64,000 bases of DNA from an uncultured Gemmatimonadota bacterium (GTDB lineage Bacteria; Gemmatimonadota; Gemmatimonadetes; Palauibacterales; KS3-K002), in the NCBI GenBank assembly GCA_964345885.1, contig CAYFSW010000170.1, positions 46,169 to 110,168 of the forward strand. Reading direction: 5' to 3'. Every line of letters begins with the position of its first letter. The first letter of the stretch is position 1. The notes below the pieces were generated by a model. It ran no database searches. It was not told where the DNA came from and saw only the letters and a program-made list of their open reading frames with translations. Shown piece by piece: positions 21,653 through 59,909 of the stretch. The position numbers and the translations under genes are program-made.

Positions 21653-21728
21653 GCGCCCGTAGCTCAATTGGACAGAGCACTGGGCTTCGGACCCAGGTGT
21701 TGGGGGTTCGAATCCTCCCGGGCGCGCC
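21653..21728 (+). tRNA. tRNA-Arg (anticodon TCG)
   Basis: Cloverleaf folds by hand: acceptor GCGCCCG/CGGGCGC, D-arm GCTC..GAGC, anticodon stem CTGGG/CCCAG with loop CTTCGGA (anticodon TCG), T-arm GGGGG-TTCGAAT-CCTCC, discriminator G. Confidence 0.8.
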
Positions 21729-21734
21729 TTTTAT

Positions 21735-21860
21735 TGGGAATTCGGGAATCAGGGAATCTGCGATTCAGGGAGTTGGGGAATTCTGGGAGGTGGGATATGG
21801 GAAGGGGAATCCGTGGAATCCGTGGAATCGGGGATTCCGGGATCCCCGATTCCCTCAATC
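21735..21860. repeat. intergenic tandem-octamer repeat element, copy A (GGGAATYC / CCGTGGAATC units)
   Basis: GGGAATTCGGGAATCAGGGAATCT...GGGGAATCCGTGGAATCCGTGGAATCGGGGATTCC. Shares its core with the elements at 27394-27615 and 35306-35530. Confidence 0.8.
21824..21853. terminator. 12-bp perfect-stem hairpin at the 3' end of repeat A; putative bidirectional terminator for tRNA-Arg (+) and nadA (-)
   Basis: GGAATCGGGGAT-TCCGGG-ATCCCCGATTCC. Lies 8 nt beyond the nadA stop codon on the minus strand. Confidence 0.4.
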
Positions 21861-21861
21861 T

Positions 21862-22884
21862 CTAGTCGTCTCGTCCGATCTCGAGCATGCGGGCGAGCGC
21901 CTGGTGGGCGCGTTGGCGGATATCGGGTGGTACGTCTACCTCGTAGCGGCCAAGCCGCAACGAAGCCAGCGTGTTCTCCAGCGTGATCTTCTTCATGTGC
22001 GGGCAGAGCGTGCAGGGGCGCACCATTTCCTTTTCGGGGTGCGCTTCCTGAACGTTGTCGGACATCGAGCACTCGGTGACTAACAGGATGCGCTGCGCGT
22101 CGGTATCGTCGACATACCTCACCATCGACGTCGTCGAACCGACGAAGTCGGCCTCCGCGCATACCTCCGGCGAACATTCCGGATGCGCCAGGATCACCAG
22201 CCCAGGGAATTGCCGCCGGTAACCGCGCAGCTCGTCGACGGTGAACTGTTCGTGCACGATACAGCGGCCCTTCCAGGCGATCACCTCGACATCGGTCTCC
22301 TTCTGTACGTTGCGTGCCAAGTACTCGTCGGGCAGGAAGATGACGCGGTCCACTCCCAGCGACTCTACCACGGCCCTGGCGTTGGCCGACGTGCAGCAGA
22401 TATCAGACTCGGCCTTTATGTCGGCCGGCGTGTTCACGTAGGTTACGACCGGCACGCCCGGGTAGCGCTCCTTCAGCAACTGGACGTCCGTCGCGGAGAT
22501 GCTCTCGCTCAACGAGCAACCGGCGTCGAGGTCCGGTATCAGGACCCGCTTCTCCGGGTTCAGGATCTTCGCGGTCTCCGCCATGAAGTGGACCCCGCAG
22601 AAGACGATCGTCTCCTCCTCGACGTCCATCGCCGCCTGGGCCAGCCCCAGCGAGTCGCCCTGGAAGTCGGCGATCCCGTAAAAGATCTGGGGTACCTGGT
22701 AGTTGTGGGCCAGGATGACCGCGCCGACCTCCTGCTTCAGGCGCAGGATCTCATGGATCAGCGGCGCCTGTAGCCGCCACTCGGCCTCCGGGACGAGATC
22801 GCAGATCTTGTCGTATATGTGCGCGGTGGCCGCCGCCACTTGCGGCGTGTATTCGATCCGCTCGATGTCTTTCGTCGTCGTCAT
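21862..22884 (-). CDS. nadA: quinolinate synthase A
   Basis: 340 aa with conserved NadA blocks (ILAHNYQ, FCGVHFMAE, Cys ligands). Confidence 0.9.
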   Translation of the reverse strand: MTTTKDIERIEYTPQVAAATAHIYDKICDLVPEAEWRLQAPLIHEILRLKQEVGAVILAHNYQVPQIFYGIADFQGDSLGLAQAAMDVEEETIVFCGVHFMAETAKILNPEKRVLIPDLDAGCSLSESISATDVQLLKERYPGVPVVTYVNTPADIKAESDICCTSANARAVVESLGVDRVIFLPDEYLARNVQKETDVEVIAWKGRCIVHEQFTVDELRGYRRQFPGLVILAHPECSPEVCAEADFVGSTTSMVRYVDDTDAQRILLVTECSMSDNVQEAHPEKEMVRPCTLCPHMKKITLENTLASLRLGRYEVDVPPDIRQRAHQALARMLEIGRDD

Positions 22885-23007
22885 TTATCCCACAAACGCC
22901 TGCTGGGCAGCCGGGGCTGCGTTGGGACACGAGGTCCGCATGCTGCTGACGAGGTGCCAGAAGATTCGACATAGACGGGTCGAAAATCAAGCCATCGCCA
23001 GGGCACC

Positions 23008-23037
23008 TTGACCGCGGCAGATGGCCCCGGTGATATT
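23008..23037 (+). promoter_or_regulatory. sigma70-type promoter for rnpB
   Basis: TTGACC (23008-23013), 17-nt spacer, TGATAT (23031-23036). Predicted start site about 23043 coincides with the start of the P1 helix. Confidence 0.45.
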
Positions 23038-23042
23038 CCGGT

Positions 23043-23426
23043 GGCCGCGAGGGGGGCGAGGGGCCGCGGGTCGGCGTCCCTAAAGGGCGTGCGATTCGAG
23101 GAAAGTCCGAGCTCCAAAGGGCAAGGTGCCGGGTAACGCCCGGGCGGCGAAAGCCGACGGAAAGTGCCACAGAGAACAGACCGCCTGCGGCTAGCGCGCT
23201 AGCGCGGCTGCCGGTAAGGGTGAAACGGTGGAGTAAGAGCCCACCGCCCGCGCGGGTAACCGCCGGGGCACGGCAAACCCCACCTGGAGCAAGGCCAAGC
23301 AGGGGACAGTGGTGGCCCGCCGCGTGATGATCCCCGGGTAGGCCGCGTGAGACGCCGGGCGACCGGCGTCCCAGATGAATGGCCCGCTGAACAGAACTCG
23401 GCTTACGGCTCCCCTCCGCGGCTTCT
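23043..23426 (+). ncRNA. rnpB: RNase P RNA (bacterial type A)
   Basis: Universally conserved blocks GAGGAAAGTCCGAGCTCC, AGGGCAAGGTGCCGGGTAACGCCCGGG, GTGCCACAGAGAACAGACCGCC, GGTAAGGGTGAAACGGTGGAGTAAGAGCCCACC and ACAGAACTCGGCTTACGG. The 5' GGCCGCGAGGGGG pairs with the 3' CCCCTCCGCGGC (P1). Confidence 0.85.
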
Positions 23427-23460
23427 GTTTAGAGTGCAAACCAAGACGAGGACCTTACAC

Positions 23461-24753
23461 TTGCCTGAGAACGGCGTCGTCCACTTCAAGCTGCAGGAGC
23501 GAAGCCTTGACAACGGGCTGCGGGTGATCGTCCAGGAGGACAACACCGCGCCTGTCGTCTCGGTCCATATCATGTATCACGTCGGATCGAAGCACGAGCC
23601 GCGCGGCCGAACCGGCTTCGCTCATCTCTTCGAGCACCTGATGTTCCAGGGCTCCGAGCATGTGCCTGACGAAGCTCACTTCAGGCTCATCCAGGATGCC
23701 GGCGGTACATTGAACGGAAGCACCTGGTTCGACCGGACGAACTACTTCGAGACGTTGCCGGCAAATGAGATCGAGCTGGGATTGTGGCTCGAATCGGACA
23801 GGCTCGGTTGGTTGGAGTCGGCGATCACGCAAGAGAAACTGGACAACCAGCGCGACGTCGTGAAGAACGAGCGTCGCCAGGCGTACGAGAACCGACCCTA
23901 CGGCCTGGCGGTCGAGACCATCCTGCGGATGGCCTACCCCGAGGGACATCCCTACCACCACCCGACGATTGGGTACATGGAGGATCTCGACACAGCCAGC
24001 CTGGACGATGTCAGGGATTTCTTCAGGACTTTCTATACGCCGGATAACGCAGTGCTCGTGTTGGCCGGAGCGCTGCAGGCCGAGCGCGGTTACGAGCTGG
24101 CTGACAGGTATTTCGGCGAGATCCCGCGCGGCCCGGCCACGCCCCAGGTAACGGCGCCGGCTGTGCCGCCGGGCTCCGAAGTCCGCGAGACGATCCACGA
24201 CAACGTACAGTTCCCGCGCGTCTACATCTTCCACCACTCACCGGCTTTCGGGCAGCCGGGGTTCGAGGCTGCAGACGTGCTGTGCAGCGTCCTGTCGGAC
24301 GGCAAGTCCTCCCGTCTGTACCGCAAGCTCGTCTATGAGGATCGCATCGCTCAGGACGTCTCAGCCCAGGTGTGGCCCACCGAGGATTGCGGCCTGTCAT
24401 TCATTGTGGCTACCGCGCGTCCTGGGGTCGAAGCCGAGACGCTGGAATCGGCGATCCTCGGAATGCTCGACGATGTTAGAGGGGGAACGATCACGCAGCG
24501 CGAAGCCGAGGGTGGTGTCAACCGGGCGACGCGTGAGCTGGTGAACGCCTTCGATGGTGTCGGCAGTCGTTCCGACGCCATAGCCACGTCGGCGACATTC
24601 CTGGGGCGCCCCGAATATGTCAATGAACTGTTTCCCCGCGTGCGTGCCGTGACCAGCGAGGCGATGGTCGAGGTGGCCAATGAGTGGCTGATCCCCGAGC
24701 GGCGGGCCACGCTTTACATTCTGCCCGAGAGCTCTGGGGAGGGGGGCAAGTGA
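23461..24753 (+). CDS. M16-family zinc peptidase (pitrilysin-like), catalytic subunit
   Basis: Inverted zinc-binding motif HLFEHLMFQG (HxxEH) and downstream E. TTG start at 23461 with GAGGA 9 nt upstream. ORF-track starts upstream would overlap rnpB. Confidence 0.75.
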   Translation: MPENGVVHFKLQERSLDNGLRVIVQEDNTAPVVSVHIMYHVGSKHEPRGRTGFAHLFEHLMFQGSEHVPDEAHFRLIQDAGGTLNGSTWFDRTNYFETLPANEIELGLWLESDRLGWLESAITQEKLDNQRDVVKNERRQAYENRPYGLAVETILRMAYPEGHPYHHPTIGYMEDLDTASLDDVRDFFRTFYTPDNAVLVLAGALQAERGYELADRYFGEIPRGPATPQVTAPAVPPGSEVRETIHDNVQFPRVYIFHHSPAFGQPGFEAADVLCSVLSDGKSSRLYRKLVYEDRIAQDVSAQVWPTEDCGLSFIVATARPGVEAETLESAILGMLDDVRGGTITQREAEGGVNRATRELVNAFDGVGSRSDAIATSATFLGRPEYVNELFPRVRAVTSEAMVEVANEWLIPERRATLYILPESSGEGGK

Positions 24754-26132
24754 TGGCGCCGCGCGTTCCGGTGGATCGCAGCCGACGCCCGAAGGCCGGA
24801 CCGCTGCCGAAGATCGTTCTTCCTGCGTTCAAGAGGTTCCGTCTCAGCAACGGTTTGACCGTGCTGACGGTCCGACACGACGACATGCCAGAGGTATCGG
24901 CACGGCTCGTCCTACCCTTCGGTGCCTATGAGGACGCGCGGGAGCACGCCGGAACCGGATTGCTCACGGCGCGCGCGCTGACGGAAGGCACTAGAGAGCG
25001 CTCGGCTCGCGAGGTCGCCGAGTGGCTGGACTACCTGGGCGCTCGCTTCAGCCTCGACGTCGATCATGACGCTACCGTGGTCAGCCTGCACTTCCTGACC
25101 CAGGTGATGGACGGGGCCTTCGGTCTGTTGGGAGAGGTCGTAGCTCGCCCCGCCTTCGATCCCGCTGAGGTTGGACGGCTTCGGGACGAGCGCCTGGACG
25201 AGATCGCCAGTGGCTTGGATGAGCCGCGAATCGTGGCGAGTCTGCGCCTGGGAGAGGCAACCTTCGGCTCACACCCGTACGGGATGAGGGCTGGCGGCGT
25301 GGAGGAGACGGTGCGTGAGATCGACGCTGAGGTCCTGAGCGACTTCCACTCGCGTTTCTACCGCCCATCCGGTGCGACGCTGGTCCTCGTGGGCGATCTG
25401 CCGGAGCTGGACGGGCTTGAGGACCGGTTGGAGGACGCTTTCGGCGCTTGGCAGGGAGATCCTGACCCGGCCACAGCGGTCGCGGAGCCGGAACCGATAG
25501 AGGAGCGTCGGCTGTGGGCCGTGCCGTGGCCCGGACCCCAGTCGGAAATCCGATTGGGCGGAATCGGTATCGCACGCCTCGACCCAGACTACTACGCGAC
25601 ACTCATCATGAACGCCATCTTCGGAGGCCTCTTCAGCTCTCGCATCAACATGAATCTGCGCGAGGACAAGGGTTGGACTTATGGGGTGTCTTCGCGCTTC
25701 GATGCCCGTAGGCGGAGCGGCCCGTTCTTTGTGGCTACGGCGGTCGATGCGGCGGTCAGCGCCGACGCGGTCGATGAGATCGTCGGCGAGATGCAGCGCA
25801 TGGAGTCGGAACCGCCCGGTGACGAAGAGATGGAGCTCGCTGTCAACGCCGTTACCCTCTCGCTACCTCGTCTGTTCGAGACCGTCGACCAGGTCTCCGG
25901 TCGCATCGCTCACCAGGTCGTCTACGGGTTGCCCGACGACTATTGGGAAACGTACGTGGACCGCTTCCGCGCTGTGACCGCCGCCGATGTTCAACGGGTG
26001 GCCGGCCGGTTTCTCGACAGTGAGCGTTCTGCGGTTGTTGTCGTCGGTCCCGTTGAGGGCTTCCGACCTCAGCTGGAAGCTTTGGGTCTGCTCCAGATCC
26101 GTGACATTCACGGACGTCCGGCCGAGTCCTAG
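24753..26132 (+). CDS. M16-family peptidase, non-catalytic partner subunit
   Basis: M16 fold without HxxEH. ATG overlaps the upstream stop (TGATG). Confidence 0.75.
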   Translation: MAPRVPVDRSRRPKAGPLPKIVLPAFKRFRLSNGLTVLTVRHDDMPEVSARLVLPFGAYEDAREHAGTGLLTARALTEGTRERSAREVAEWLDYLGARFSLDVDHDATVVSLHFLTQVMDGAFGLLGEVVARPAFDPAEVGRLRDERLDEIASGLDEPRIVASLRLGEATFGSHPYGMRAGGVEETVREIDAEVLSDFHSRFYRPSGATLVLVGDLPELDGLEDRLEDAFGAWQGDPDPATAVAEPEPIEERRLWAVPWPGPQSEIRLGGIGIARLDPDYYATLIMNAIFGGLFSSRINMNLREDKGWTYGVSSRFDARRRSGPFFVATAVDAAVSADAVDEIVGEMQRMESEPPGDEEMELAVNAVTLSLPRLFETVDQVSGRIAHQVVYGLPDDYWETYVDRFRAVTAADVQRVAGRFLDSERSAVVVVGPVEGFRPQLEALGLLQIRDIHGRPAES

Positions 26133-26599
26133 GACCGAAGACCTGCCCCTCGGATACCCGCCACCGTTCCGCTCCAGCCAGAGGCCCACCTCGTCTGTAA
26201 GCTGTTTGTGTCTATCGAGATGCGTGGTCGGAGCTGCGGCGGCCAGGAAACAGATGTGTCCCGAAGGAAACCCTCGGAGCCGCTGGCGCGTCTATATTAA
26301 GTAGAGAGGCGAGGCAGAGCCCCTCCGACGATAACGTATCGGAGGTTACGGTACCGCAGCCGGCCGCCGCCCTGGGTCGGAAGATGCGGGCAGAAGTACA
26401 TACAGAAATCAGACACAAGTACTGAAAAACTTGCAGGATGTGCGGCGCAACAGCGCAAGAAGGGAGGACGCAAGCGACACTGTAATTGGTTAGTCTATTA
26501 ACACTTAGGCCACTGACCCGGGTCTGCGGGACGGCCTTCTGGGCCGGGGAATGGAACCTGCACGCGTGTTGGGGTGGGAGAAAAAGGGAGACCCGGCGA

Positions 26600-27322
26600 A
26601 TGATCGATGACGGAGTAAAGGGCGGCGTTGTTGTATTGCAGCCGCAGACGAGCCCAGCGACGGAAACGTCGCCGGAGATAGAGGGCGGAAGTCAAGAGAT
26701 GGTACAGGTAGCGAAGAAAGAGGCCAAGGAGCGCGAGCTATCGCTCACCGAGCTTCAGGACAACGAGCTGGTGGCGCGGTTTCTCGCCGGCAACGGGCTG
26801 GCGTTTCCAGAGCTGGTCCGCCGCTACCAGTCACGTCTGCTCAACTTCATCTACCGGACGATTGGGGATCGAGATCGGGCGGAGGACCTGGTGCAGGAGA
26901 CGTTCATCCGGGTCTACCGGCATTTGCACCGGTTTGACCAGGCGAAGAAGTTCTCGACCTGGATCTACACGATCGCCAGCAACCTAGCGAAGAACGAGCT
27001 GCGCAACCGGTCGAGAAACCCGCTGGTCCTCTTCCAGACGATCAAGAAGAACTGGGAGGCGGACCATCGGCCGCTCCAATGGGAGGATCCGCACTACCGT
27101 CCGGATGATCTGTTCAGGAAGCGTCACCTGCGTGACACGGTGGAGAAAGCGGTCGAGCAGTTGCCGGAACACCATCGCATCGTCTTCGTGCTCAGGGAGA
27201 TGGAGGGCAAGACATACGAGGAAATCTCCGAGATCACCGGTGTTAACCTGGGCACGGTTAAGTCGAGGCTGAATAGGGCCCGTAACAACTTCGCGCAGAT
27301 CATTGCACCGATGCTGCGCTAG
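26600..27322 (+). CDS. ECF-type RNA polymerase sigma-70 family factor (RpoE-like) with extended region 2-4 linker
   Basis: Region 2 (DLVQETFIRVYRHLHRFD...FSTWIYTIASNLAKNELR) and region 4 (EEISEITGVNLGTVKSRLNRAR). RBS AAAGGGAGA upstream of the ATG at 26600. An alternative ATG lies at 26701. Confidence 0.8.
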   Translation: MIDDGVKGGVVVLQPQTSPATETSPEIEGGSQEMVQVAKKEAKERELSLTELQDNELVARFLAGNGLAFPELVRRYQSRLLNFIYRTIGDRDRAEDLVQETFIRVYRHLHRFDQAKKFSTWIYTIASNLAKNELRNRSRNPLVLFQTIKKNWEADHRPLQWEDPHYRPDDLFRKRHLRDTVEKAVEQLPEHHRIVFVLREMEGKTYEEISEITGVNLGTVKSRLNRARNNFAQIIAPMLR

Positions 27323-27360
27323 CCGCAGGCAGGGTCGATTCCGAGGCGCTGCAGGTTCAA

Positions 27361-27392
27361 GGCGCCGGCCATAGGCCGGCGCCTTTCATATT
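27361..27392 (+). terminator. rho-independent terminator downstream of the sigma factor gene
   Basis: GGCGCCGGCC-ATAG-GCCGGCGCC perfect hairpin followed by TTTCATATT. Confidence 0.6.
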
Positions 27393-27393
27393 G

Positions 27394-27615
27394 CCAAATC
27401 GGGAAATCGGGATATCGGGAATTCGGGAATCCGGAATTCGGGCATTGGGGACCGAGGAAGGGGAGTCCGTGGAATCCGTGGTATCCGTGGTATCGGGGAA
27501 TCGGGGAGTTGGGGGAATCGGGAACTCCCGAATTCCCGGATGCCACGGATTCTTGAATTCCGAGTCCGCGGCTTCCAGATTCCCGGATTCCCGGCTCCCA
27601 AGATCGATATTCGTT
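27394..27615. repeat. intergenic tandem-octamer repeat element, copy B (internally palindromic)
   Basis: AAATCGGGAAATCGGGATATCGGGAATTCGGG...GAGTCCGTGGAATCCGTGGTATCCGTGGTATCGGGGAATCGGGG...CCCGAATTCCCGGATGCCACGGATTC...ATTCCCGGATTCCCGG. The second half is the reverse complement of the first. Confidence 0.8.
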
Positions 27616-27719
27616 ATTCCCTCACCGGAGGTGGAACTCAGCGGTGCCTCAGGCGTAGAAGGGTTCAATCACCGATTCTCAGCCAAGCAGTGTGGAGATC
27701 GGCCTCGGGACGCGCGATC

Positions 27720-28283
27720 ATGGAATGTGAAGAGTTTCTAACGGACTATTCCGACTTCCTCGACCGCCAGTTTGAGGAGCACCCCATAGTAAGCTACTGC
27801 GATCACCTGCTCAGCTGCTCGGACTGCGCCGCCTACGACCGGGTGATGCGACGCGGTCTCAAGCTGGTGAGAGGGCTCGAGCAGCCGGAGGCACAGCCGG
27901 ATCTGGTACCTCGGGTAGGTGAGAGGGTCCTCAGCCGAGGCGTGAGCGGGAGCGGGGGCGCGGAAAGCACCAGGACCGCCTTGGTCGCCGCGGCGGCCAT
28001 CCTGGCGCTCTGCGTGGTGGGGTCGCTGGCGGTGCTGCGCTCGGGAGGGACGACGGAGCTTCCGCCGCTGGTCGTGGAACCGGCGGTGGCCGATGAGCTG
28101 CCCTCGCTGTGGGGTCCGGCACCCAAGCTCACCCCGGCGGTGAGTCTCCTTCGAGTCCCCGAACTGACTGACGACCGCCTCTTCAGACCACCACCGGAGC
28201 GGTTCTCGGCGTTTCGCGCTCCGCTCAGGGCGTCGCGCCGGCCGTCGTCGCTTGACGCTTTACAGACGGCAGCGCCGGAGTAG
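27720..28283 (+). CDS. zinc-dependent (ZAS-type) membrane-anchored anti-sigma factor
   Basis: HxxxCxxC motif (CDHLLSCSDCAAY) about 25 aa from the ATG at 27720; central TM helix (ALVAAAAILALCVVGSLAVL). The ORF-track start at 27540 lies inside repeat B and is rejected. Confidence 0.65.
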   Translation: MECEEFLTDYSDFLDRQFEEHPIVSYCDHLLSCSDCAAYDRVMRRGLKLVRGLEQPEAQPDLVPRVGERVLSRGVSGSGGAESTRTALVAAAAILALCVVGSLAVLRSGGTTELPPLVVEPAVADELPSLWGPAPKLTPAVSLLRVPELTDDRLFRPPPERFSAFRAPLRASRRPSSLDALQTAAPE

Positions 28284-28340
28284 AGTCCGAGGGGCCGCAG
28301 CCGAGTTGACACCTCTTGATTCTCCGTCCAATACTGTGAC

Positions 28341-29411: not shown

Positions 29412-29421
29412 GCTGAGGAGC

Positions 29422-30231
29422 GTGCGCTTGGTGTTGACGTGCGCGGCGCTCATGGGATACGCCGTCTTGGCGTCCGCCGGCTTGGCGCTGGCGCAGCAGG
29501 ACTCACTGCTCGACCAGGCCGAGCGCCTGGCGAATCGCGGCGAGGTCCGAGAAGCGCGCCAGGCGTTGGCCCGCTGGGAGAGCGACTTCGGAGAGTCGGC
29601 GCCTCTCGACCAACGGGCCCGGGCCTGGTTTCTGGCGGGCCGGCTGGCCGAGAAAGGCGACGAGGCGGAGCTCAGTTACCTGCGCGTGATCGTCGAGGGA
29701 TCGACGACCCCGTACGCCGACGACGCGCTCCTCCGACTGGCTCAGTATAAGCACGCTGAGGGCGAGTTCGCGAAGGTCGTCGATTACCTGGGGCGGCTGC
29801 GGCGCGATTATCCGACGAGTGAGCATGGGCCCGAGGCGCTGCTCTGGATCAGCCGCGCGGCGCGGGAAATGGGCGATGTGCACCGAGCCTGCGCAGCGGC
29901 CGAGCAGGGAATGGCTGAGCTGGCTCCAGGCGACACGCTGCTGGAGCGCTCCTTCCGTGAGGTGCAATCAGCTTGCGGTTCAGCCGAGCGTACGTTTACC
30001 GTGCAGGTCGCCGCGTTCAGGGGTGAGGCGGCGGCGCAGAACCTGGCCCGCGAGCTACTCATCGCCGGCTACGATGCTTGGGTGCTCAGCTCCAACGGGG
30101 ACGACCCCATCTATCGGGTGCGCGTCGGACGTGGGCTGCTCGAGGCGGAGGCCCAGGCGCTCATTGAGCGGCTGGTCGGGGAGGGGCACTCACCGTTCCT
30201 GGTCTCCCAGCCGGAGCGGATCGGAGGATAG
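29422..30231 (+). CDS. SPOR-domain (peptidoglycan-binding) protein with TPR-like N-terminal region
   Basis: C-terminal SPOR signature (FTVQVAAFRGEAAAQNLARELLIAGYDAWVL...YRVRVGRG). Signal peptide from GTG 29422, with TTG 29428 and ATG 29452 as alternatives. The ORF-track start at 29347 overlaps holA. Confidence 0.6.
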   Translation: MRLVLTCAALMGYAVLASAGLALAQQDSLLDQAERLANRGEVREARQALARWESDFGESAPLDQRARAWFLAGRLAEKGDEAELSYLRVIVEGSTTPYADDALLRLAQYKHAEGEFAKVVDYLGRLRRDYPTSEHGPEALLWISRAAREMGDVHRACAAAEQGMAELAPGDTLLERSFREVQSACGSAERTFTVQVAAFRGEAAAQNLARELLIAGYDAWVLSSNGDDPIYRVRVGRGLLEAEAQALIERLVGEGHSPFLVSQPERIGG

Positions 30232-30238
30232 AACGGCA

Positions 30239-32860
30239 GTGCAGCCAGACCGCGGTCCCAACACGCCATTGATGCGGCAGTACCTGGAGATGAAGGGTCG
30301 CTATCCCGACGCGATCCTCTTCTTTCAGGTCGGAGACTTCTACGAGATGTTCTTCGAGGATGCCGAGGAGGCCTCTCGGCTCCTCAACCTGACTCTCACG
30401 TCCCGCAACAACGGCGAGGCGGCACGCGTCCCGCTCGCCGGTGTGCCCATCAAAGCTGCCCAGGAGTACGTGCAGAGGCTCATCCGATTGGGACGCCGCG
30501 TGGCAATATGCCAGCAGGTCGAGGACGCCTCGCAGGCACGGGGCGTGGTTCGCCGCGAGGTCGTCGAGACAGTAACCCCGGGCGCCGTATTCTCCGAGGC
30601 CCTGTTGGAAGCCGGCCAGAACAACTTCCTCGCCGCCGTCGCCGGTGCGAGCTCAGCCGAGGACGTCGGGCTGGCATGGGCGGACATCTCGACGGGTGAG
30701 TTCTTCTGTGCCGGGATCGCTCGCTCGGAACTCGCCTCCGAGCTCGACCGGATAGACGCACGGGAGATCTTGTTTCCCAGCTCTTGGGAACCGGACCGCA
30801 GGGCACGGACGGGAGACGCGTCCGAGAGGCCCGCGACATATCGTGAGGACTGGAACTTCGATGCGGAGATCGCCGGTGAGAAGATCTGCCGGCACTTCGG
30901 GATCACCAGCCTCGCCAGCCTCGGCTTGAGTGAGCCCGGTGACGAGCCTGCAGTCCAAGCGGCGGGTGGGTTGCTCGGCTACGTGCTCGAGGTGCAGCCT
31001 GGCGGCGGCAGCCAGCTGCGGCCCCCACGCGCCGAGCGCGGTGACAAGGCGCTGCACATGGACGAGATGACGCGGCGCAACCTAGAGGTTGTTCGCCCGC
31101 TACGCCCCGAGCTCGGTGGTACGACACTGTTCGATGTGATCGATGCGACGCTCACTCCGATGGGCACTCGTCTCTTGCGGTCTTGGCTGTTGCGGCCACT
31201 GGTCGATCCGGAGGCAATCGGCCATCGCCAAGACGCGGTCGAAGAGATGCTTGACGATGGGCCGCGACGTAAGCGCCTACGCGAATCTCTGGGGGCGGTG
31301 CGCGACCTGGCCAGGCTGGCGGGGAAGGCGGGCGCCCAGCGCGCCGCGCCCCGCGATCTGCTCGCCCTCGCCGACTCCCTGCGTCAGATACCCTGCGTCT
31401 TGGAGGCGCTGGTTGAGCCGTGTAGCCGCGAGCTGGCTGAGGCCTGCGATGGGTTCGATCGGGCCGATGACGTCGTCGAGCTGATCGAGCGTGCGATCGA
31501 CCCCGAGGCGCCGGCCAACCTCGCTGATGGGGGCGTGGTGCGGGCCGGTTACTCGGTCGAGCTGGATGAGTTGCGTTCGATCCGTGATGGCGCGGTCAAC
31601 TGGATTGCGGAGCTGCAGGGCCGCGAGCGGCAGCGGACAGGTATCGGTTCGCTCAAGGTTGGATACAACCGCGTGTTCGGCTACTACATAGAGGTGACCA
31701 AGCCGAATCTCGGCAGAGTCCCCGACGACTACGAACGGCGACAGACGCTCACCAACGCCGAGCGCTTTATTACGCCCGAGCTCAAGGAATGGGAGTCGAA
31801 GGTGCTGGGCGCCGAGGAGCGGATCGGCGATCTCGAGCAGCGGCTGTTCCGCGAGGTGAGGGAGTCGGTGGGTGGTGCGGTTGAGCGTCTGCTAGACGGT
31901 GCGCGGCGGATCGCCCTCATCGACGTATATGCTTCGCTGGCCTACGTGGCCGACCGGAACGGCTACAGACGACCGCGTATCGATACCGAGGATCGCATCG
32001 ACATACGGGCTGGTCGGCACCCGGTCGTCGAGTGCATGATGCCGCGCGAGCAGTTCGTCCCCAACGATATCAGGCTCGATGGGAACCAGCGTGTGATCAT
32101 CCTTACGGGGCCGAACATGGCGGGTAAGTCGACGATCCTTCGGCAGGTTGGTCTCATAGCGCTGATGGCACAGGCCGGTTCCTTCGTGCCGGCGGATTCA
32201 GCTGAGATCGGAGTTACCGATCGGATCTTTACCCGGGTCGGCGCCTCCGACAATCTGGCGCAGGGACAGAGCACCTTCATGGTCGAGATGATCGAGACGG
32301 CCGCTATCCTGAACGGTGCGACGGACTGCAGCCTGGTGCTTTTGGACGAGATCGGGCGCGGCACATCAACGTATGACGGAGTGTCGATCGCCTGGTCGGT
32401 GACCGAGCACATTCACGAGCGCATCGGCGCCAAGACGGTCTTCGCCACCCACTACCACGAGTTGACCCAGATCGCGGATCTCCTACCGGCGGCTGCGGCT
32501 TACAACGTAGCCGTCAAGGAGGTGGGAGACGATATCGTCTTCCTGCGACGCCTCGAGCCGGGCGGAACCGATCGGTCCTATGGTGTGCAGGTGGCACGGC
32601 TCGCCGGACTGCCAGCCGAGGTCATCGAGCGGGCGCGGCAGATTCTGCACGATCTGGAGGGCGTGGAGGTCGGCTCGGGCCCCGGGTTCGGCCGCCGCGG
32701 GCGGCTGCCGGAATCGCTGGACCGCTCGCAGCTGAGCCTCTTCCAAGAGCCCGAAAGTCCGGTACTCGAGAGACTGCGGAACATCATGCCTGAGGAGATG
32801 ACCCCAATAGAAGCGCTCGCGCTGCTAGCCGAGCTAAAGCGTGAGGCAGAGAGCTCGTGA
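30239..32860 (+). CDS. mutS: DNA mismatch repair protein MutS
   Basis: N-terminus TPLMRQYLEMKGRYPDAILFFQVGDFYEMFFEDA; Walker A GPNMAGKST; STFMVEM motif. GTG start at 30239 with GGAGGA 8 nt upstream. The ORF-track start at 29819 is an upstream read-through. Confidence 0.9.
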   Translation: MQPDRGPNTPLMRQYLEMKGRYPDAILFFQVGDFYEMFFEDAEEASRLLNLTLTSRNNGEAARVPLAGVPIKAAQEYVQRLIRLGRRVAICQQVEDASQARGVVRREVVETVTPGAVFSEALLEAGQNNFLAAVAGASSAEDVGLAWADISTGEFFCAGIARSELASELDRIDAREILFPSSWEPDRRARTGDASERPATYREDWNFDAEIAGEKICRHFGITSLASLGLSEPGDEPAVQAAGGLLGYVLEVQPGGGSQLRPPRAERGDKALHMDEMTRRNLEVVRPLRPELGGTTLFDVIDATLTPMGTRLLRSWLLRPLVDPEAIGHRQDAVEEMLDDGPRRKRLRESLGAVRDLARLAGKAGAQRAAPRDLLALADSLRQIPCVLEALVEPCSRELAEACDGFDRADDVVELIERAIDPEAPANLADGGVVRAGYSVELDELRSIRDGAVNWIAELQGRERQRTGIGSLKVGYNRVFGYYIEVTKPNLGRVPDDYERRQTLTNAERFITPELKEWESKVLGAEERIGDLEQRLFREVRESVGGAVERLLDGARRIALIDVYASLAYVADRNGYRRPRIDTEDRIDIRAGRHPVVECMMPREQFVPNDIRLDGNQRVIILTGPNMAGKSTILRQVGLIALMAQAGSFVPADSAEIGVTDRIFTRVGASDNLAQGQSTFMVEMIETAAILNGATDCSLVLLDEIGRGTSTYDGVSIAWSVTEHIHERIGAKTVFATHYHELTQIADLLPAAAAYNVAVKEVGDDIVFLRRLEPGGTDRSYGVQVARLAGLPAEVIERARQILHDLEGVEVGSGPGFGRRGRLPESLDRSQLSLFQEPESPVLERLRNIMPEEMTPIEALALLAELKREAESS

Positions 32861-33267
32861 GGCGGATTCTGGCGGTCGGGATGGTGGTGGCGCTGGTCGC
32901 CGTAGGATTCGCGATGGCCAGTCAGCTGCCGGGGATCGGCGGTCTGCTGGGCTTCATGCGAGGCGGACAGTCGCTGCCGGTGCTGCAGACCGGTGAGATG
33001 CCTTTCCGCTACCCGCTACGATTGTGGCGCGAGGGGGTCGAAGGCGAGGTGCTGCTCAGAATACATGTCACGGCGGTGGGCACGGTGGATTCCGTGGAGC
33101 TCGAGCGCTCGAGCGGCCATGCCGAACTCGATTCCATCGCCCTGCGCGGGGCTAGGCAGCTGAGGTACGACCCGGCCGTCGAGGGTGAGCGGCCTGTTGC
33201 TACATGGGCTATGTTGCCGGTTCGCTTCACGCGTAACACAGACGCAGGTTCAACGGAGGGCCAGTGA
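32857..33267 (+). CDS. TonB C-terminal domain protein (energy transducer TonB-like)
   Basis: N-terminal TM anchor; C-terminal YPxxAxxxGxEGxVxLxxxIxxxGxV pattern (RYPLRLWREGVEGEVLLRIHVTAVGTV). GTG overlaps the mutS stop. Confidence 0.55.
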   Translation: MRRILAVGMVVALVAVGFAMASQLPGIGGLLGFMRGGQSLPVLQTGEMPFRYPLRLWREGVEGEVLLRIHVTAVGTVDSVELERSSGHAELDSIALRGARQLRYDPAVEGERPVATWAMLPVRFTRNTDAGSTEGQ

Positions 33268-33355
33268 ACGGGCGGGGCGTGAGTCACGACTGCGATCTCT
33301 CAAGGATCTGCGACGGCGAGTGGATGCAAGCAGGGCGGGTGCTGGAGGCGCGTCC

Positions 33356-34399
33356 GTGAAGGTGGCAGTGCTGATGGGAGGTACGAGCGCGGAGCGCGAT
33401 GTGTCGCTGGCGACGGGCCACGAGATCGCAAAGGCGCTCCAGGCGCAGGCGCACCAGGTCGTGGCGATCGACGCGGCCGGCGGCCGCCTCATCCCTCTGG
33501 CTGGGTCAGCAGGGCGTTCCGTTTCGGGTATTGGCACTGAGCCCCCTAATCAAGGCGAGCTTGTGCGCCTGGAGAGCGGTTCGCTCGTGCGCCGCTTGGA
33601 AGACGCGCCAGAGTTGGAGGATACCGAGGTCGTGTTCGTCGCCCTGCACGGCGGCGCCGGCGAAGATGGCCGGGTACAGGCGCTACTCGACCTCGTCGGT
33701 ATCCCTTACACGGGTAGCGGGCCGCTGGGTAGCGCCCTGGCGATGGACAAGCTTGCAACCAAGGATCTCTTTATCGCTGCGGGCATCCCGACTCCGCCCT
33801 GGCTCGTGGGACCGGTGACCGAGTCGCAGGTGGAGCAGGCGCTCGGCGGCTTTCCGGTGGTGGTAAAACCTTCGCACGAAGGCTCCACAGTTGGCGTTAG
33901 CGTCGTCAGGGATCCGGGTGATCTGGGTGCGGCGATCGAGAGAGCCGGCCGCTTCCAGGGGCCGGTGCTGGTCGAGCGCTTCATCCCTGGGCGCGAGCTG
34001 GCGGTGGGGGTTCTGGGGGACGAGGCGCTGCCCATAGTCGAGATTCGCCCCAAGCACGAGATCTACGACTACGAGTGCAAGTACACGAAAGGTATGTCAG
34101 AGTACGAGGTCCCGGCGCCCATCGACGATACCCTTACCAAGAAAGTGCAAGACCTGGCGGTACGCGCACACCGTGTGCTCCGCCTGTCGGCATACAGCCG
34201 GGTGGACTTCCGCCTCGACGAGGACGGCGCTCCTTGGTGCTTCGAGGCCAACTCGCTTCCCGGGATGACCGCTACGAGCCTCTTGCCCAAGGCGGCGCGG
34301 GCCATCGGCGTCTCTTTCGGGGAGCTTTGCGACCGGATCGTGCGGCTAGCGCTGGAGAAGGAGGACTCCGTTGGAACCCGGCCCGGCGGTCCGGGTTAG
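33356..34399 (+). CDS. ddl: D-alanine--D-alanine ligase
   Basis: VKVAVLMGGTSAERDVSL N-terminus; ATP-grasp motifs (VVVKPSHEGSTVGVSVV, EANSLPGMT). GTG start at 33356 with GGAGG 7 nt upstream. Confidence 0.85.
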   Translation: MKVAVLMGGTSAERDVSLATGHEIAKALQAQAHQVVAIDAAGGRLIPLAGSAGRSVSGIGTEPPNQGELVRLESGSLVRRLEDAPELEDTEVVFVALHGGAGEDGRVQALLDLVGIPYTGSGPLGSALAMDKLATKDLFIAAGIPTPPWLVGPVTESQVEQALGGFPVVVKPSHEGSTVGVSVVRDPGDLGAAIERAGRFQGPVLVERFIPGRELAVGVLGDEALPIVEIRPKHEIYDYECKYTKGMSEYEVPAPIDDTLTKKVQDLAVRAHRVLRLSAYSRVDFRLDEDGAPWCFEANSLPGMTATSLLPKAARAIGVSFGELCDRIVRLALEKEDSVGTRPGGPG

Positions 34400-34435
34400 G
34401 GTAGATGAGATGTCTATGAGCGCGGGACAGAGCCA

Positions 34436-35305
34436 GTGAGCAGGTACGGGTCGATGAGCCCGGGCGGCATGAGGTTCGCCTATCGGATGACACCGTGGGT
34501 GAAGCGCCTGATCATAGCCAACGCTGTGTTATGGCTCTTGACCTGGTTGCGCCTGATCCCGCCCCAGCTGGCCTACGACTATCTCGGTTTCACCGCGACG
34601 GAGGTCCTCAGAGAGCCCTGGACGATCATCACCTACATGTTCGTCCACGGCGGCTTCTTCCACGTCTTCATCAACATGCTGAGGCTCTTCTTCTTCGGGC
34701 CGCCGCTCGAGGAGCGTTGGGGCGGGAAGGAGTTCTTGAAATACTACGCGATCTGCGGTGTCGCCGGTGCGCTGTTCAGTGTCGGCGCGCTGGCGTTCCC
34801 CAGCCTGGGGACCGGGACCATCCCGATCGTAGGCGCCTCCGGTGCGGTCTACGGTGTCATGCTAGCGTACGCGCTGAACTGGCCGAACAGTCTCGTCTGG
34901 ATCTACGCCATATTTCCCATCAAGGTGAAGTACCTGGTCATGATCCTGGGAGCGATGACCTTCTTCTCGGCCTTCGGCGGGGCGACCGACGGGATCGCCC
35001 ACTTCGCCCACCTGGGCGGCCTCGTCGTGGGCTACATCTACCTCAAGAAGGGCTGGCAGTTGGGGGCGCACCTGGAGGCCTGGAAGAAGCGGTTGCGCAA
35101 GCGGAGACTCAGGGTGGTGCAGGGCGGTACGGGCAAGCCGGCCCGCCCCACGCCGGCCGATGAGGAAGCCCGCATCCTGGAGGTCGTCGACAAGTTGCTC
35201 GACAAGATTGCCGCCAGCGGCCTCGAATCGCTGACTCCCGAGGAACGCCGCTTCCTCGACGAGGTCTCGCGCCGCCGCCAGGCGCAGCACGAAGTCCGAC
35301 ACTAG
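34436..35305 (+). CDS. rhomboid-family intramembrane serine protease
   Basis: Six to seven TM helices; catalytic GASGAVYG serine motif and downstream His (AHFAHLGG); charged C-terminal tail. Confidence 0.8.
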   Translation: MSRYGSMSPGGMRFAYRMTPWVKRLIIANAVLWLLTWLRLIPPQLAYDYLGFTATEVLREPWTIITYMFVHGGFFHVFINMLRLFFFGPPLEERWGGKEFLKYYAICGVAGALFSVGALAFPSLGTGTIPIVGASGAVYGVMLAYALNWPNSLVWIYAIFPIKVKYLVMILGAMTFFSAFGGATDGIAHFAHLGGLVVGYIYLKKGWQLGAHLEAWKKRLRKRRLRVVQGGTGKPARPTPADEEARILEVVDKLLDKIAASGLESLTPEERRFLDEVSRRRQAQHEVRH

Positions 35306-35530
35306 AAATTCGGCGATTCCGGCATTCCGGGATTCGGGGAGCAAGGGAAACTCGTCCCCAATTCCCCAATTCCCCGATTCCACGGACTCCACGGATTCCA
35401 CGGATTCCCGGTTCCGCAGCCCCAAAAACCTCATTCCCCGACTCCCCGACTCCCCGACTCCCCGAATCCCCAACTCCCGAACTCTCTTGACTCTCCGCTC
35501 CGCCGAAAATACGATTCCGGCCCGATCCAC
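35306..35530. repeat. intergenic tandem-octamer repeat element, copy C (inverted relative to A and B)
   Basis: CCCCAATTCCCCAATTCCCCGATTCCACGGACTCCACGGATTCCACGGATTCCCGG...CCCCGACTCCCCGACTCCCCGACTCCCCGAATCCCC is the reverse complement of the GGAATCCGTGG / GGGGAGTCGGGG units of A and B. Confidence 0.8.
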
Positions 35531-37651: not shown

Positions 37652-37662
37652 GCGGTAGACAG

Positions 37663-37717
37663 TATGCGGTGTGCTGTGTGCAGTGATGGGCCGACGGCGA
37701 ACTCCGCACACCGCATA
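37663..37717 (+). terminator. hairpin downstream of the EF-G paralog (possible terminator)
   Basis: TATGCGGTGTGC ... GCACACCGCATA 12-bp inverted repeat starting 12 nt after the stop, followed by direct repeats of CGCACACCG. No U-tract, so weak as an intrinsic terminator. Confidence 0.3.
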
Positions 37718-37804
37718 CCGCATATCGCACACCGAATTGATCAGCCCTCCCTGCACCCCTATCTTTCCGGGTGTTGAAGGTCCAGCAACAAAAGGAAGGA
37801 GAGA

Positions 37805-59730: not shown

Positions 59731-59758
59731 CGGGGAGCAGTGGGCAGTGGGCAGTGAG

Positions 59759-59793
59759 TGGTGAGCGGTAGCCCGTGCTGCTCACCGCTCACT
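59759..59793 (+). terminator. hairpin downstream of tamB (possible terminator)
   Basis: GTGAGCGGT-(loop)-ACCGCTCAC stem about 30 nt after the tamB stop. No U-tract. Confidence 0.3.
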
Positions 59794-59909
59794 CGTACAC
59801 CGCTCACCTCTTACTGGAACCGCGCCTGGCTTTCGCTTAACTTGGCAAGACCAACAAAGGAATACGGGTGCAGCAAGGGCGGGCCGCTAACCCTGCCCAG
59901 GAGAGAAGT

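What the first reader, a model, noticed from the sequence alone, without database searches (positions are those of the whole stretch)
21735..35530. Dispersed family of intergenic tandem-octamer (GGGAATYC / CCGTGGAATC) repeat elements, three copies, one inverted
Three intergenic blocks (21735-21860, 27394-27615, 35306-35530) are each built from 15-25 degenerate 8-10 bp units such as GGGAATTC, GGGAATCA, GGGGAGTC and CCGTGGAATC. All share the core (GGAATCCGTGG)2-3. Copy C is the exact reverse-complement arrangement of A and B. Copy B is itself a roughly 220-bp imperfect palindrome whose ends resemble terminal inverted repeats (CGGGAAATCGGG ... CCCGGATTCCCG). Copy A ends in a perfect 12-bp hairpin. 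All three sit at gene 3' ends or between transcription units and contain no credible coding frame; the ORF track's ORFs here are low-complexity artefacts on both strands. Their function is not evident from sequence. Candidates include a MITE-like mobile element, arrays of binding sites for a DNA-binding protein, or structured terminator/insulator elements.
Basis: seen in the sequence. Interest (0 to 1): 0.7.

Follow-up and report, generated by a model that had tools for sequence, protein, structure and literature searches.

The report
G-rich tandem-repeat palindromes between genes
Three non-coding stretches between housekeeping genes of a Gemmatimonadota bacterium are copies of a lineage-specific repeat family built from 8-base G-rich units around a 9-base core; they are the same kind of thing as the quadruplex-prone GGGAATC repeats already described in Xanthomonas and Nostoc, whose function is still unknown.

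Summary
Three intergenic blocks, and only those three in 64 kb, are dense arrays of GGGRATTC-type units around a (GGAATCCGT)2-3 core. All three are variants of one imperfect palindrome: G-octamers, spacer, core, G-octamers, then the reverse complement. B keeps both arms, while A and C keep opposite arms. The window is from a Gemmatimonadota MAG. The same architecture occurs at 27 or more loci in three other Gemmatimonadota species genomes. A and C lie at orthologous sites in a relative with about 91% identical DNA. There the elements differ by whole-unit indels, although the flanks are conserved. More distant relatives lack them, so they are dispensable. I found no Rfam match, no coding signal, no conserved termini, no target-site duplications and no near-identical copies. 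The closest known kind is the G-quadruplex-forming GGGAATC / GGGGA(C/T)T intergenic repeats of Xanthomonas and Nostoc (Rehm 2015). Those share the unit variants, the position by stop codons, the inverted pairs and the conserved locus with variable length. What is new here is the phylum, the 8-nt unit, the embedded 9-mer core and the roughly 130-nt homologous arm. The most likely nature is structure-prone satellite-like DNA that evolves by slippage and arm-to-arm templating. A bidirectional roadblock function is possible but unproven.

The parts
21735..21853 (+). Element A. It has a G-rich arm only (G-octamers, irregular spacer, then core), followed by a short terminal hairpin. It lies between the tRNA-Arg 3' end (21728) and the stop of convergent nadA (21862).
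   Evidence: The ortholog in CP070812.1 (L031) and in L198 is a full palindrome of about 270 bp, so the C-rich arm has been lost here.
21806..21825 (+). 9-mer core of A: GGAATCCGTGGAATCCGTGG
21824..21853 (+). Perfect 12-bp hairpin GGAATCGGGGAT-tccggg-ATCCCCGATTCC at the end of A
27394..27522 (+). Element B, G-rich left arm: G-octamers, spacer, core x3, G-octamers
27523..27615 (+). Element B, C-rich right arm. It is the reverse complement of the left arm, with one core copy at 27543-27553.
27462..27490 (+). 9-mer core of B: GGAGTCCGT GGAATCCGT GGTATCCGT GG
35306..35486 (-). Element C. It is mostly the C-rich arm on the + strand. Read on the - strand it is G-octamers x6, spacer, core x3, G-octamers, then a short complementary stretch (35312-35349). 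It fills the whole space between the rhomboid stop (35305) and the -35 box of the EF-G promoter.
35380..35408 (-). 9-mer core of C (three copies)
21768..21807 (+). Canonical G-quadruplex motif (G3+ N1-7) x4 or more in A
27495..27522 (+). Canonical G-quadruplex motif in B (a second one lies at 27401-27427)
35436..35478 (-). Canonical G-quadruplex motif in C. This is the longest G4Hunter-positive segment of the window.
27361..27390 (+). Context, not part of the element: intrinsic terminator of the ECF sigma gene (GGCGCCGGCC-atag-GGCCGGCGCC-TTTCAT), conserved in all relatives
27633..27657 (+). Context: conserved ECF-type promoter-like motif GGAAC-N16-CGTA upstream of the putative anti-sigma gene (27720-28283)
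   Evidence: read from the sequence; inference
35487..35515 (+).

Best explanation
A, B and C are copies of a lineage-specific (Gemmatimonadota) family of non-coding, imperfectly palindromic repeat elements. The elements are built from short tandem units.

**Architecture.** The full form is about 220-290 bp: (GGGRATTC)n, an irregular spacer, (GGAATCCGT)2-4, then (GGGRATTC)n, followed by the reverse complement of all of this. The G-rich arm always comes first. They belong to the same kind as the G-quadruplex-prone GGGAATC / GGGGA(C/T)T intergenic simple-sequence repeats and inverted repeat pairs of Xanthomonas and Nostoc.

**Shown.**
- The anatomy of the elements.
- That the family is dispersed.
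- Intergenic placement, usually starting within a few bases of a gene's 3' end.
- Persistence at the same locus in relatives, with whole-unit indels and loss of one arm.
- Absence from more distant relatives.

**Inferred.**
- They behave as satellite-like DNA. Arrays grow and shrink by replication slippage.
- The two arms are kept complementary by intrastrand template switching (quasi-palindrome correction) or by selection on pairing.
- They are tolerated only in dispensable spacer DNA.
- Any effect on the cell is structural, through a long hairpin or cruciform and/or a G-quadruplex or R-loop. Whichever direction RNA polymerase comes from, it first meets a G-rich non-template strand. This could make the element a weak bidirectional roadblock or insulator at gene ends.
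- That function is not required at these loci.
For: **Real and non-random.**

**Palindrome.** B folds with z = -5.4. The arms of A, B and C and their orthologs align over about 130 nt with the same module order.

**Dispersed family.**
- The exact 20-mer core together with octamer arrays occurs at 11 loci in CP070812.1, 10 in JBDHKT and 6 in JBDHHM.
- Dense octamer elements are absent from about 1 Mb of other phyla.

**Same locus, fast turnover.**
- A and C are orthologous in CP070812.1, and A, B and C in L198-201 (flanks of CP070812.1 about 90-93% identical). The elements are only about 76% identical to their orthologs, no closer than to paralogs.
- A 33-bp indel and a unit substitution lie inside C, between strains that are 99.3-99.9% identical.

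**Dispensable.** B is reduced in L202, and B and C are absent in L204-L208, while the terminator and promoters are retained.

**Dominant units.** GGGGATTC, GGGAATTC and GGGATTC.

**G-quadruplex motifs.** 4 of the window's 6 canonical G4 motifs lie in the blocks.

**Published analog (PMC4692102).**
- 89-93% of repeats are intergenic.
- They lie about 28 nt on average from the upstream ORF.
- There are 70-75 inverted convergent pairs per genome.
- 83% are in the same gene context between species, with length variation.
- They form G4 in vitro.
- The unit variants are the same.

**Concerted evolution of arms.** This is seen in the neighbouring heptamer hairpins, where the locus is the same but the unit differs in every clade.
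Against: - A homologous arm of about 130 nt, with a non-repetitive spacer and a fixed core, is more than independent slippage would produce. Some copy-and-paste or gene-conversion process must have spread it, and I could not identify that process.
- The structural function is supported only by arm polarity and by a rough, hand-made count of orientation. Of the single-arm copies, 8 have the G-rich strand as the sense strand after the nearest stop codon, against 2-3 that do not.
- RNA folding shows no sense/antisense asymmetry.
- A and C alone do not fold better than shuffles.
- 3 of about 21 elements lie between divergent genes. There is therefore no clear exclusion from promoter regions.
- G4 formation was not tested.
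Confidence: 0.6

Rival explanations
1. A selected bidirectional transcription barrier or insulator. Either the G-rich non-template strand (G4/R-loop) or the long RNA hairpin stops read-through and protects 3' ends, in the way REP/BIME elements or STRR hairpins are proposed to do. The elements would then be maintained for that function.
For: - Elements usually begin 0-70 nt after a stop codon or a tRNA end.
- All full copies have the G-rich arm first from either direction.
- C and B sit exactly between a 3' end and the next promoter.
- At the neighbouring EF-G/yebC spacer, a stable hairpin is kept in 8 lineages despite complete turnover of the unit.
- Some Xanthomonas transcripts end within such repeats.
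Against: - The elements are dispensable. Close relatives lack B and C but have the same genes, terminator and promoters.
- B lies downstream of a separate canonical terminator.
- There is no T-run.
- The polarity is opposite to that of terminator-like 9-mer hairpins in other phyla (26:1).
- There is no strand asymmetry in RNA folding.
- 3 elements lie between divergent genes.
Confidence: 0.2
2. A non-autonomous mobile element, MITE-like, foldback-like or REPIN-like, spread by a transposase encoded elsewhere in the genome.
For: - Many dispersed copies share an arm consensus of about 130 nt, including non-repetitive spacer and core.
- The whole element is an inverted repeat.
- Presence and absence differ between relatives.
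- Two independent copies abut tRNA genes.
Against: - There are no conserved termini and no target-site duplications.
- The best non-orthologous identities are about 80-92% over 80-230 bp, with a median of 78%. No near-identical copies were found.
- A, B and C (B in a short form) stay at the same loci across relatives, changing by unit indels.
- There is no GTAG or CGTC tag.
- There are no copies in viral contigs.
- No transposase is present in the 64-kb window context that was examined.
Confidence: 0.13
3. An array of binding sites for a sequence-specific DNA-binding protein. Candidates are a nucleoid-associated or GANTC-recognising factor, or a factor that binds the GGAATCCGT core.
For: - The core 9-mer is the best-conserved part of every arm.
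- About 27 of the window's 258 GANTC sites fall in the three blocks, while GANTC is otherwise under-represented (258 observed against 346 expected).
Against: - The core is not over-represented outside the elements.
- The 8-9 bp spacing is out of phase with the DNA helix.
- The second most common unit, GGGAATTC, lacks GANTC.
- In Xanthomonas, position 7 of the unit is variable.
- No candidate protein is linked to the elements.
Confidence: 0.06
4. A chance low-complexity sequence or an assembly artefact.
For: Low-complexity repeats are prone to misassembly in MAGs.
Against: - B and C are identical in an independent assembly that is 99.77% identical overall (L196).
- Orthologous copies exist in NCBI and JGI assemblies and in a closed chromosome.
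Confidence: 0.01

Closest known systems
G-quadruplex-forming heptameric SSRs: GGGAATC (Xanthomonas campestris and X. citri) and GGGGA(C/T)T (Nostoc PCC 7120). Rehm et al. 2015, PLoS One 10:e0144275 (PMC4692102).
   Same: - The unit grammar is G3-4 + A + N + T (+C), with the same variants: GGGAATC, GGGATTC, GGGAGTC, GGGGATT.
- The units form head-to-tail arrays of variable length.
- The arrays are overwhelmingly intergenic and start next to the upstream ORF's end.
- Many occur as convergent inverted pairs able to form a stem-loop or cruciform.
- The locus is kept between related species, while length and sequence vary.
- They are not linked to IS elements.
- They contain canonical G4 motifs.
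- Their function is unknown.
   Different: - The phylum is different (Gemmatimonadota).
- The dominant unit is 8 nt (GGGGATTC / GGGAATTC) rather than 7.
- Each arm embeds a (GGAATCCGT)2-4 core and an irregular spacer, giving a homologous arm of about 130 nt. The Xanthomonas and Nostoc supplementary lists contain neither the core nor octamer tandems.
- Under-representation between divergent genes is not demonstrable here.
Cyanobacterial STRR (short tandemly repeated repetitive) heptamer sequences
   Same: - They are tandem 7-nt units in non-coding DNA that can form hairpins (hupS-hupL, hoxW promoter).
- They are proposed to affect transcript stability, but their function is unknown (PMC2670836).
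- This applies especially to the heptamer-armed hairpins at 37652-37735 and 59733-59812.
   Different: - The unit sequences and the phylum are different.
- STRR are usually described as direct arrays.
- The composite core architecture has not been described for them.
REP/BIME and REPIN elements (RAYT-associated), and MITEs such as Correia and ERIC
   Same: They are short, non-coding, palindromic, intergenic, multi-copy elements, often at gene 3' ends. They can act as RNA hairpins that affect termination or mRNA stability (PMC3733652).
   Different: - The elements here have no GTAG or CGTC tag, no fixed ends and no target-site duplication.
- Their arms are internally tandem-repetitive and vary in length.
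- No transposase association was found.
Intrinsic (Rho-independent) terminators
   Same: Both are a stable hairpin directly after a gene.
   Different: - No T-run follows the elements here.
- The G-rich arm is 5', whereas terminator-like 9-mer hairpins in other phyla are C-arm first in 26 of 27 cases, and 12 of them have a T-run.
- B follows a separate canonical terminator.

Membership tests
GGGNATC-type G-rich intergenic SSRs (Rehm 2015) | Unit made of a run of 3 or more G followed by A-N-T(-N); positions 1-4 and 6 conserved | tested here: met
   224 parsed units: GGGGATTC 38, GGGAATTC 23, GGGATTC 21, GGGAATCC 8, GGGAGTC 7, GGGAATC 6. The modal length is 8 rather than 7 (130 against 60).
GGGNATC-type G-rich intergenic SSRs (Rehm 2015) | Head-to-tail arrays of 2 or more units with variable copy number | tested here: met
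   TRF period-8 arrays of 3-16 copies in all three blocks. Copy number differs between orthologs and between strains.
GGGNATC-type G-rich intergenic SSRs (Rehm 2015) | Intergenic, and close to the end of the upstream ORF | tested here: met
   A starts 7 nt after tRNA-Arg, C starts 1 nt after the rhomboid stop, and B starts 72 nt after the sigma stop. Most copies in other genomes start 0-70 nt after a stop (using rough gene calls).
GGGNATC-type G-rich intergenic SSRs (Rehm 2015) | Frequent convergent inverted pairs (G-rich on +, then G-rich on -) | tested here: met
   B here, and about 14 full palindromes in other loci, all with the G-arm first.
GGGNATC-type G-rich intergenic SSRs (Rehm 2015) | Same gene context in related species, but variable length and sequence | tested here: met
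GGGNATC-type G-rich intergenic SSRs (Rehm 2015) | Four or more G-tracts, and folding into G-quadruplexes | not testable with these tools
   The sequence motif is present: runs of 3-6 G3+ tracts, and 4 of the window's 6 canonical motifs. Folding itself needs CD, NMR or G4-seq.
GGGNATC-type G-rich intergenic SSRs (Rehm 2015) | Under-represented between divergent ORFs | tested here: inconclusive
   3 of about 21 classifiable elements lie between divergent genes (L027, L078, L081). The sample is too small, and it was ascertained through the core.
MITE | Defined terminal inverted repeats with conserved ends | tested here: not met
   The outermost paired bases differ in every copy. The ends fade into variable unit arrays.
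MITE | Target-site duplication flanking the element | tested here: not met
   None was seen at 16 full copies. No clean empty/filled site pair was available.
MITE | Recently transposed, near-identical copies, and a parent IS with matching ends | tested here: inconclusive
   Median pairwise identity is 78%, and the best extended non-orthologous match is about 92% over 133 bp. A parent IS could not be searched for genome-wide.
REP / REPIN (RAYT-mobilised) | A 20-40 bp palindrome tagged by terminal GTAG (or CGTC) | tested here: not met
   There is no GTAG or CTAC in A, B or C, and a single internal CGTC in C. The arms are about 100-130 nt.
REP / REPIN (RAYT-mobilised) | A RAYT (Y1 transposase) gene in the genome, flanked by the repeat | not tested
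   Only 64 kb plus fetched loci were available.
Intrinsic terminator | A GC-rich hairpin followed immediately by a T/U run | tested here: not met
   No terminator-like site was called at the blocks. There is no T4+ after any block.
Any Rfam RNA family | Covariance-model match | tested here: not met
   There are no hits at the blocks at gathering score or at E of 5 or less.

The most novel reading that the evidence does not exclude
Nearly the same G3-4-A-N-T-C unit recurs in three unrelated phyla: Xanthomonas, Nostoc and now Gemmatimonadota. In Gemmatimonadota the palindrome order is strictly G-arm first, the 9-mer core is conserved, and units are replaced wholesale while the hairpin design is kept. 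Together these features could reflect a dedicated and still unknown mechanism rather than neutral slippage. One possibility is a structure-specific, bidirectional G4/R-loop transcription stop. Another is an enzyme system that generates, homogenises and disperses these repeats.
Probability: 0.12. Interest if true: 0.75.

Novelty: new variant of a known kind. Interest (0 to 1): 0.45.

Why it matters
Quadruplex-prone heptamer and octamer repeats next to stop codons were described in Xanthomonas and Nostoc ten years ago, and their function has never been explained. This finding adds three things:

- The same unit grammar occurs in a third, unrelated phylum.
- Here it is organised as a homologous palindromic element with a conserved core.
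- There is a graded series of relatives in which single loci can be followed through gain, arm loss, unit indels and complete unit replacement.

This gives a tractable comparative system for asking two questions. The first is whether such repeats are selfish satellite DNA or bidirectional barriers at gene ends. The second is how the two arms of a bacterial palindrome evolve in concert.

There is also a practical point. These blocks generate spurious ORFs on both strands, and they are likely hotspots for assembly errors and strain typing (VNTR) in Gemmatimonadota MAGs.

Tried and rejected
- **Rfam.** I searched at gathering score and at permissive E-value on the window and on 18 hairpin loci from other phyla. 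Nothing matched at the repeats.
- **Literature search by sequence strings.** No paper was found.
- **Viral contig scan for the core.** There were 15 hits, all coding repeats in phage genes of about 50% GC, and unrelated to these elements.
- **Metagenome scan with MutS as query.** It was saturated by distant phyla, with a best identity of 59%, and gave no useful orthologs. It served only as a negative control of about 1 Mb.
- **DNA-uptake-sequence idea.** The core is not enriched outside the elements.
- **GANTC / methylation-site idea.** The enrichment inside the blocks is explained by unit composition. The second commonest unit lacks GANTC.
- **RNA-level strand selection.** Sense and antisense fold energies show no consistent bias.
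- **tRNA-derived or tRNA-targeting idea.** Only 2 independent copies abut tRNA genes.
- **Cross-phylum hits to the 9-mer.**
  - The hits in Acidobacteriota, Verrucomicrobiota and others are simple hairpins of the opposite polarity, many with T-runs. They are not the same element.
  - The hits in Streptomyces and others are coding (VES)n repeats.
- **My first alignment of A against L031.** It used the wrong range and was redone.

Full report

Yes. Reading the three regions shows dense arrays of GGGAATTC, GGGAATC, GGGGAGTC and similar units around tandem GGAATCCGT repeats.

- Tandem Repeats Finder reports period-8 and period-9 arrays in exactly these places.
- The core GGAATCCGTGG, allowing one mismatch, occurs 12 times in the window against 1.5 expected, and no shuffle out of 100 reaches 12. 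GGGAATYC occurs 13 times against 4.2 expected.
- A unit-hexamer density scan lights up only 21703-21856, 27384-27628 and 35319-35508 in the whole 64 kb.
- The longest inverted repeats in the window are in C and B. B folds into a hairpin of about 220 nt, at -150 kcal/mol and z = -5.4.
- A and C as a whole do not fold better than shuffles. A ends in a perfect 12-bp hairpin at 21824-21835 / 21842-21853.

**2. Context**

The window comes from a Gemmatimonadota MAG. Its holA product is identical to a protein of GCA_011771825.1, and that contig (L196) is 99.77% identical to the window.

The neighbouring genes are housekeeping genes. In order they are:

- acyl-CoA dehydrogenase and tRNA-Arg
- **[A]**
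- nadA (convergent), RNase P RNA, two M16 peptidases and an ECF sigma factor
- **[B]**
- a putative anti-sigma factor, holA, a SPOR protein, mutS, a TonB_C protein, ddl and a rhomboid protease
- **[C]**
- EF-G and yebC

Where each element sits:

- A lies between the 3' ends of tRNA-Arg and nadA.
- B lies between a canonical intrinsic terminator of the sigma gene (27361-27390) and a conserved ECF-type GGAAC-N16-CGTA motif (27633-27657).
- C fills the space from the rhomboid stop codon to the -35 box of a conserved TTGACT-17-TACGAT promoter (35487-35515).

Public gene calls leave all three gaps empty. The blocks contain almost no stop codons because of their composition, which explains the spurious ORFs on both strands.

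**3. One element, three states**

I aligned A(+), the left arm of B(+), the right arm of B(-), C(-) and the orthologs of A. They share a common arm of about 130 nt, with this order of modules:

- five to seven G-octamers
- an irregular spacer of 15-25 nt
- (GGAATCCGT)2-3 GG
- more G-octamers

The full element is this arm followed by its reverse complement.

- B has both arms.
- A has only the G-rich arm plus a short hairpin. In CP070812.1 and in L198 the same locus carries the full palindrome of about 270 bp.
- C keeps the other arm plus a short piece of the first.

'One copy inverted' is therefore better stated as 'opposite arms of a palindrome retained'.

**4. A dispersed family**

Of these, 27 are in three Gemmatimonadota genomes: 11 in CP070812.1, 10 in JBDHKT and 6 in JBDHHM. 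All 27 show the octamer + core architecture, and about 14 are full palindromes with the G-arm first.

Parsed units are dominated by GGGGATTC (38), GGGAATTC (23) and GGGATTC (21) out of 224.

Copies are 65-92% identical, with a median of 78%. Orthologous copies are no more alike than paralogous ones.

The other hits fall into two classes:

- Coding (VES)n-type repeats in actinomycetes and phages.
- Simple hairpins of the form (CCACGGATT)n-loop-(AATCCGTGG)n, in Acidobacteriota, Verrucomicrobiota, Kiritimatiellia and others. 26 loci have this polarity and 1 has the opposite. 12 of them have a T-run, so they look like terminators.

Because the Gemmatimonadota elements have the reverse arm order and no T-run, I treat these hits as unrelated.

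**5. Evolution at fixed loci**

Using holA homologs I fetched a synteny series with holA identities of 100%, 91%, 84%, 79%, 74%, 72%, 67% and 66%, and compared four spacers.

| Locus | State across relatives |
|---|---|
| A | Present in the window, L198 and CP070812.1. L204 has octamers without the core. L205 has nothing. L208 has a heptamer hairpin instead. |
| B | Present in the window and in L198-201. L202 has a short degenerate form. Absent in L204-L208, while the terminator and the GGAAC motif remain. |
| C | Present in the window, L198-201 and CP070812.1. Absent in L202, L204 and L206, while the EF-G promoter remains. |

Further points:

- Flanks of CP070812.1 are about 90-93% identical to the window, but the elements are about 76% identical to their L198 orthologs, with whole-unit indels.
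- Among strains that are 99.3-99.9% identical, C differs by a 33-bp deletion and a unit substitution.
- Dense octamer elements are absent from L202-L208 and from about 1 Mb of unrelated genomes.
- No conserved termini or target-site duplications were found at 16 full copies.

The elements are therefore long-lived at a locus, unstable internally and dispensable. There is no sign of recent transposition.

**6. A related phenomenon next door**

Right after EF-G (37652-37735), and again at 59733-59812, there are hairpins whose arms are tandem heptamers. At the EF-G/yebC spacer a stable hairpin is present in almost every relative, with DNA-fold z scores from -2.0 to -6.3. The heptamer, however, differs by clade:

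- GTRTGCG in the window
- GGTRGCC in CP070812.1
- RGTRGTC in L198 and L202
- GGTAAGC in L207

Both arms change together. This is concerted evolution of a palindrome. It suggests that slippage combined with arm-to-arm templating, or selection on pairing, operates in this lineage. The same process would account for the behaviour of the octamer elements.

**7. What is known**

There are no Rfam hits and no paper containing the sequence strings. The closest published description is Rehm et al. 2015 (PMC4692102). They describe GGGAATC repeats in Xanthomonas (about 185 loci per genome) and GGGGA(C/T)T repeats in Nostoc, with these properties:

- 89-93% of repeats are intergenic.
- They lie on average 28 nt from the upstream ORF.
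- Arrays have 2-26 units.
- There are 70-75 convergent inverted pairs per genome.
- Only 7-8% lie between divergent ORFs.
- 83% are in the same gene context between two species, with extensive length variation.
- G4 and i-motif formation was shown in vitro.
- Most repeats are transcribed.
- Their function is unknown.

Their unit variants (GGGAATC, GGGATTC, GGGAGTC, GGGACTC, GGGAATT, GGGGATT) are the same as those found here. Their supplementary lists contain neither the GGAATCCGT core nor octamer tandems.

Cyanobacterial STRR heptamers that form hairpins are the older analog (PMC2670836). REP and MITE families share the niche but not the defining features (PMC3733652).

**8. How it most likely works**

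*Shown.* The elements have a structure-prone anatomy. They can form a long hairpin or cruciform, and they carry canonical G4 motifs, holding 4 of the window's 6. They sit at gene ends. Their polarity is G-arm first. They turn over in situ. They are dispensable.

*Inferred.*

- They are satellite-like DNA, maintained by slippage and by quasi-palindrome correction.
- They are tolerated in spacer DNA.
- Their only plausible activity is structural.
- Because of the arm order, RNA polymerase arriving from either side first transcribes a stretch whose non-template strand is G-rich. From general knowledge of G-rich transcription blockage, this is the orientation that favours R-loop/G4 blockage. The paired arms would also give a long RNA hairpin.
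- This would make the element a weak bidirectional barrier between transcription units.

*Evidence against a required function.*

- Relatives lose the elements.
- B sits behind a real terminator.
- There is no T-run.
- There is no sense/antisense folding bias.
- Three copies lie in divergent promoter regions.

*What remains unexplained.* I cannot say how a homologous arm of about 130 nt, with its unique spacer and core, was spread to dozens of loci.

**9. Verdict**

This is a new variant, in a new phylum, of a known but functionally unexplained kind of bacterial repeat. It has an octamer unit and a composite palindrome with an embedded core. Interest is moderate.

Noticed in passing
window 37652-37735 and 59733-59812: Two further intergenic hairpins have arms that are tandem heptamers (GTRTGCG / CGCAYAC after EF-G; GCAGTGG / CCGCTCA at 59.7 kb). 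At the EF-G/yebC spacer, relatives keep a stable hairpin but use a different heptamer in each clade, and both arms change together.
   Followed up: partly
window 27361-27390, 27633-27657, 27720-28283: The ECF sigma gene and its putative anti-sigma gene (no Pfam hit; has an N-terminal Cys/His-rich motif) are separated by a canonical terminator and by a conserved GGAAC-N16-CGTA ECF-type promoter-like motif. The anti-sigma/holA unit may therefore be transcribed separately, under ECF control. The motif is conserved in all relatives examined.
   Followed up: partly
window 23008-23037 and 23048-23421: Bacterial RNase P RNA class A (253 bits), with a TTGACC-18-GATATT promoter-like site ending about 10 nt upstream.
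   Followed up: no
window, whole: The palindromic pentamer GANTC is under-represented: 258 sites against 346 +/- 14 expected. About 27 of the sites sit in the three repeat blocks.
   Followed up: partly
L008, L010, L029, L030, L033, L036, L085, L089, L097, L109, L111, L115 and others (26 loci): In Acidobacteriota, Verrucomicrobiota, Kiritimatiellia, Lentisphaeria and others, the same 9-mer forms hairpins of the form (CCACGGATT)n-loop-(AATCCGTGG)n. They are always of this polarity (26:1), and are often flanked by A- and T-runs like bidirectional intrinsic terminators. The strict polarity is unexplained.
   Followed up: partly
L036 ~650-780, L088 ~4440-4560, L113 ~1610-1735 (minus strand of each): Three Acidobacteriota MAGs share a conserved stretch of about 70 nt (agcccaattcgctctgaaagcggcggcaagctactgagtcccacttccgattacac) directly after the 9-mer repeat and CGTTTTT. 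It may be a separate dispersed element or a small RNA.
   Followed up: no
L113 7127-7172 (-): An Rfam Acido-Lenti-1 RNA match (52 bits), unrelated to the repeats.
   Followed up: no
L198 14930-16333 compared with window ~33267: Relatives at 91%, 79%, 72%, 67% and 66% holA identity carry a PALP/CBS-domain gene between the TonB_C gene and ddl. The window and L202 lack it.
   Followed up: no
L207 1709-2078: In a relative at 67% holA identity, degenerate octamer-like arrays flank the tRNA-Arg gene on both sides. L096 has an element directly after tRNA-Glu.
   Followed up: partly
L210, L212, L214-L216, L219, L222, L223 (IMG/VR sample 3300045988): A family of phage contigs of about 50% GC carries a variable number (2-7+) of in-frame GGAATCCGT repeats inside one conserved gene. 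This is a coding VNTR.
   Followed up: no
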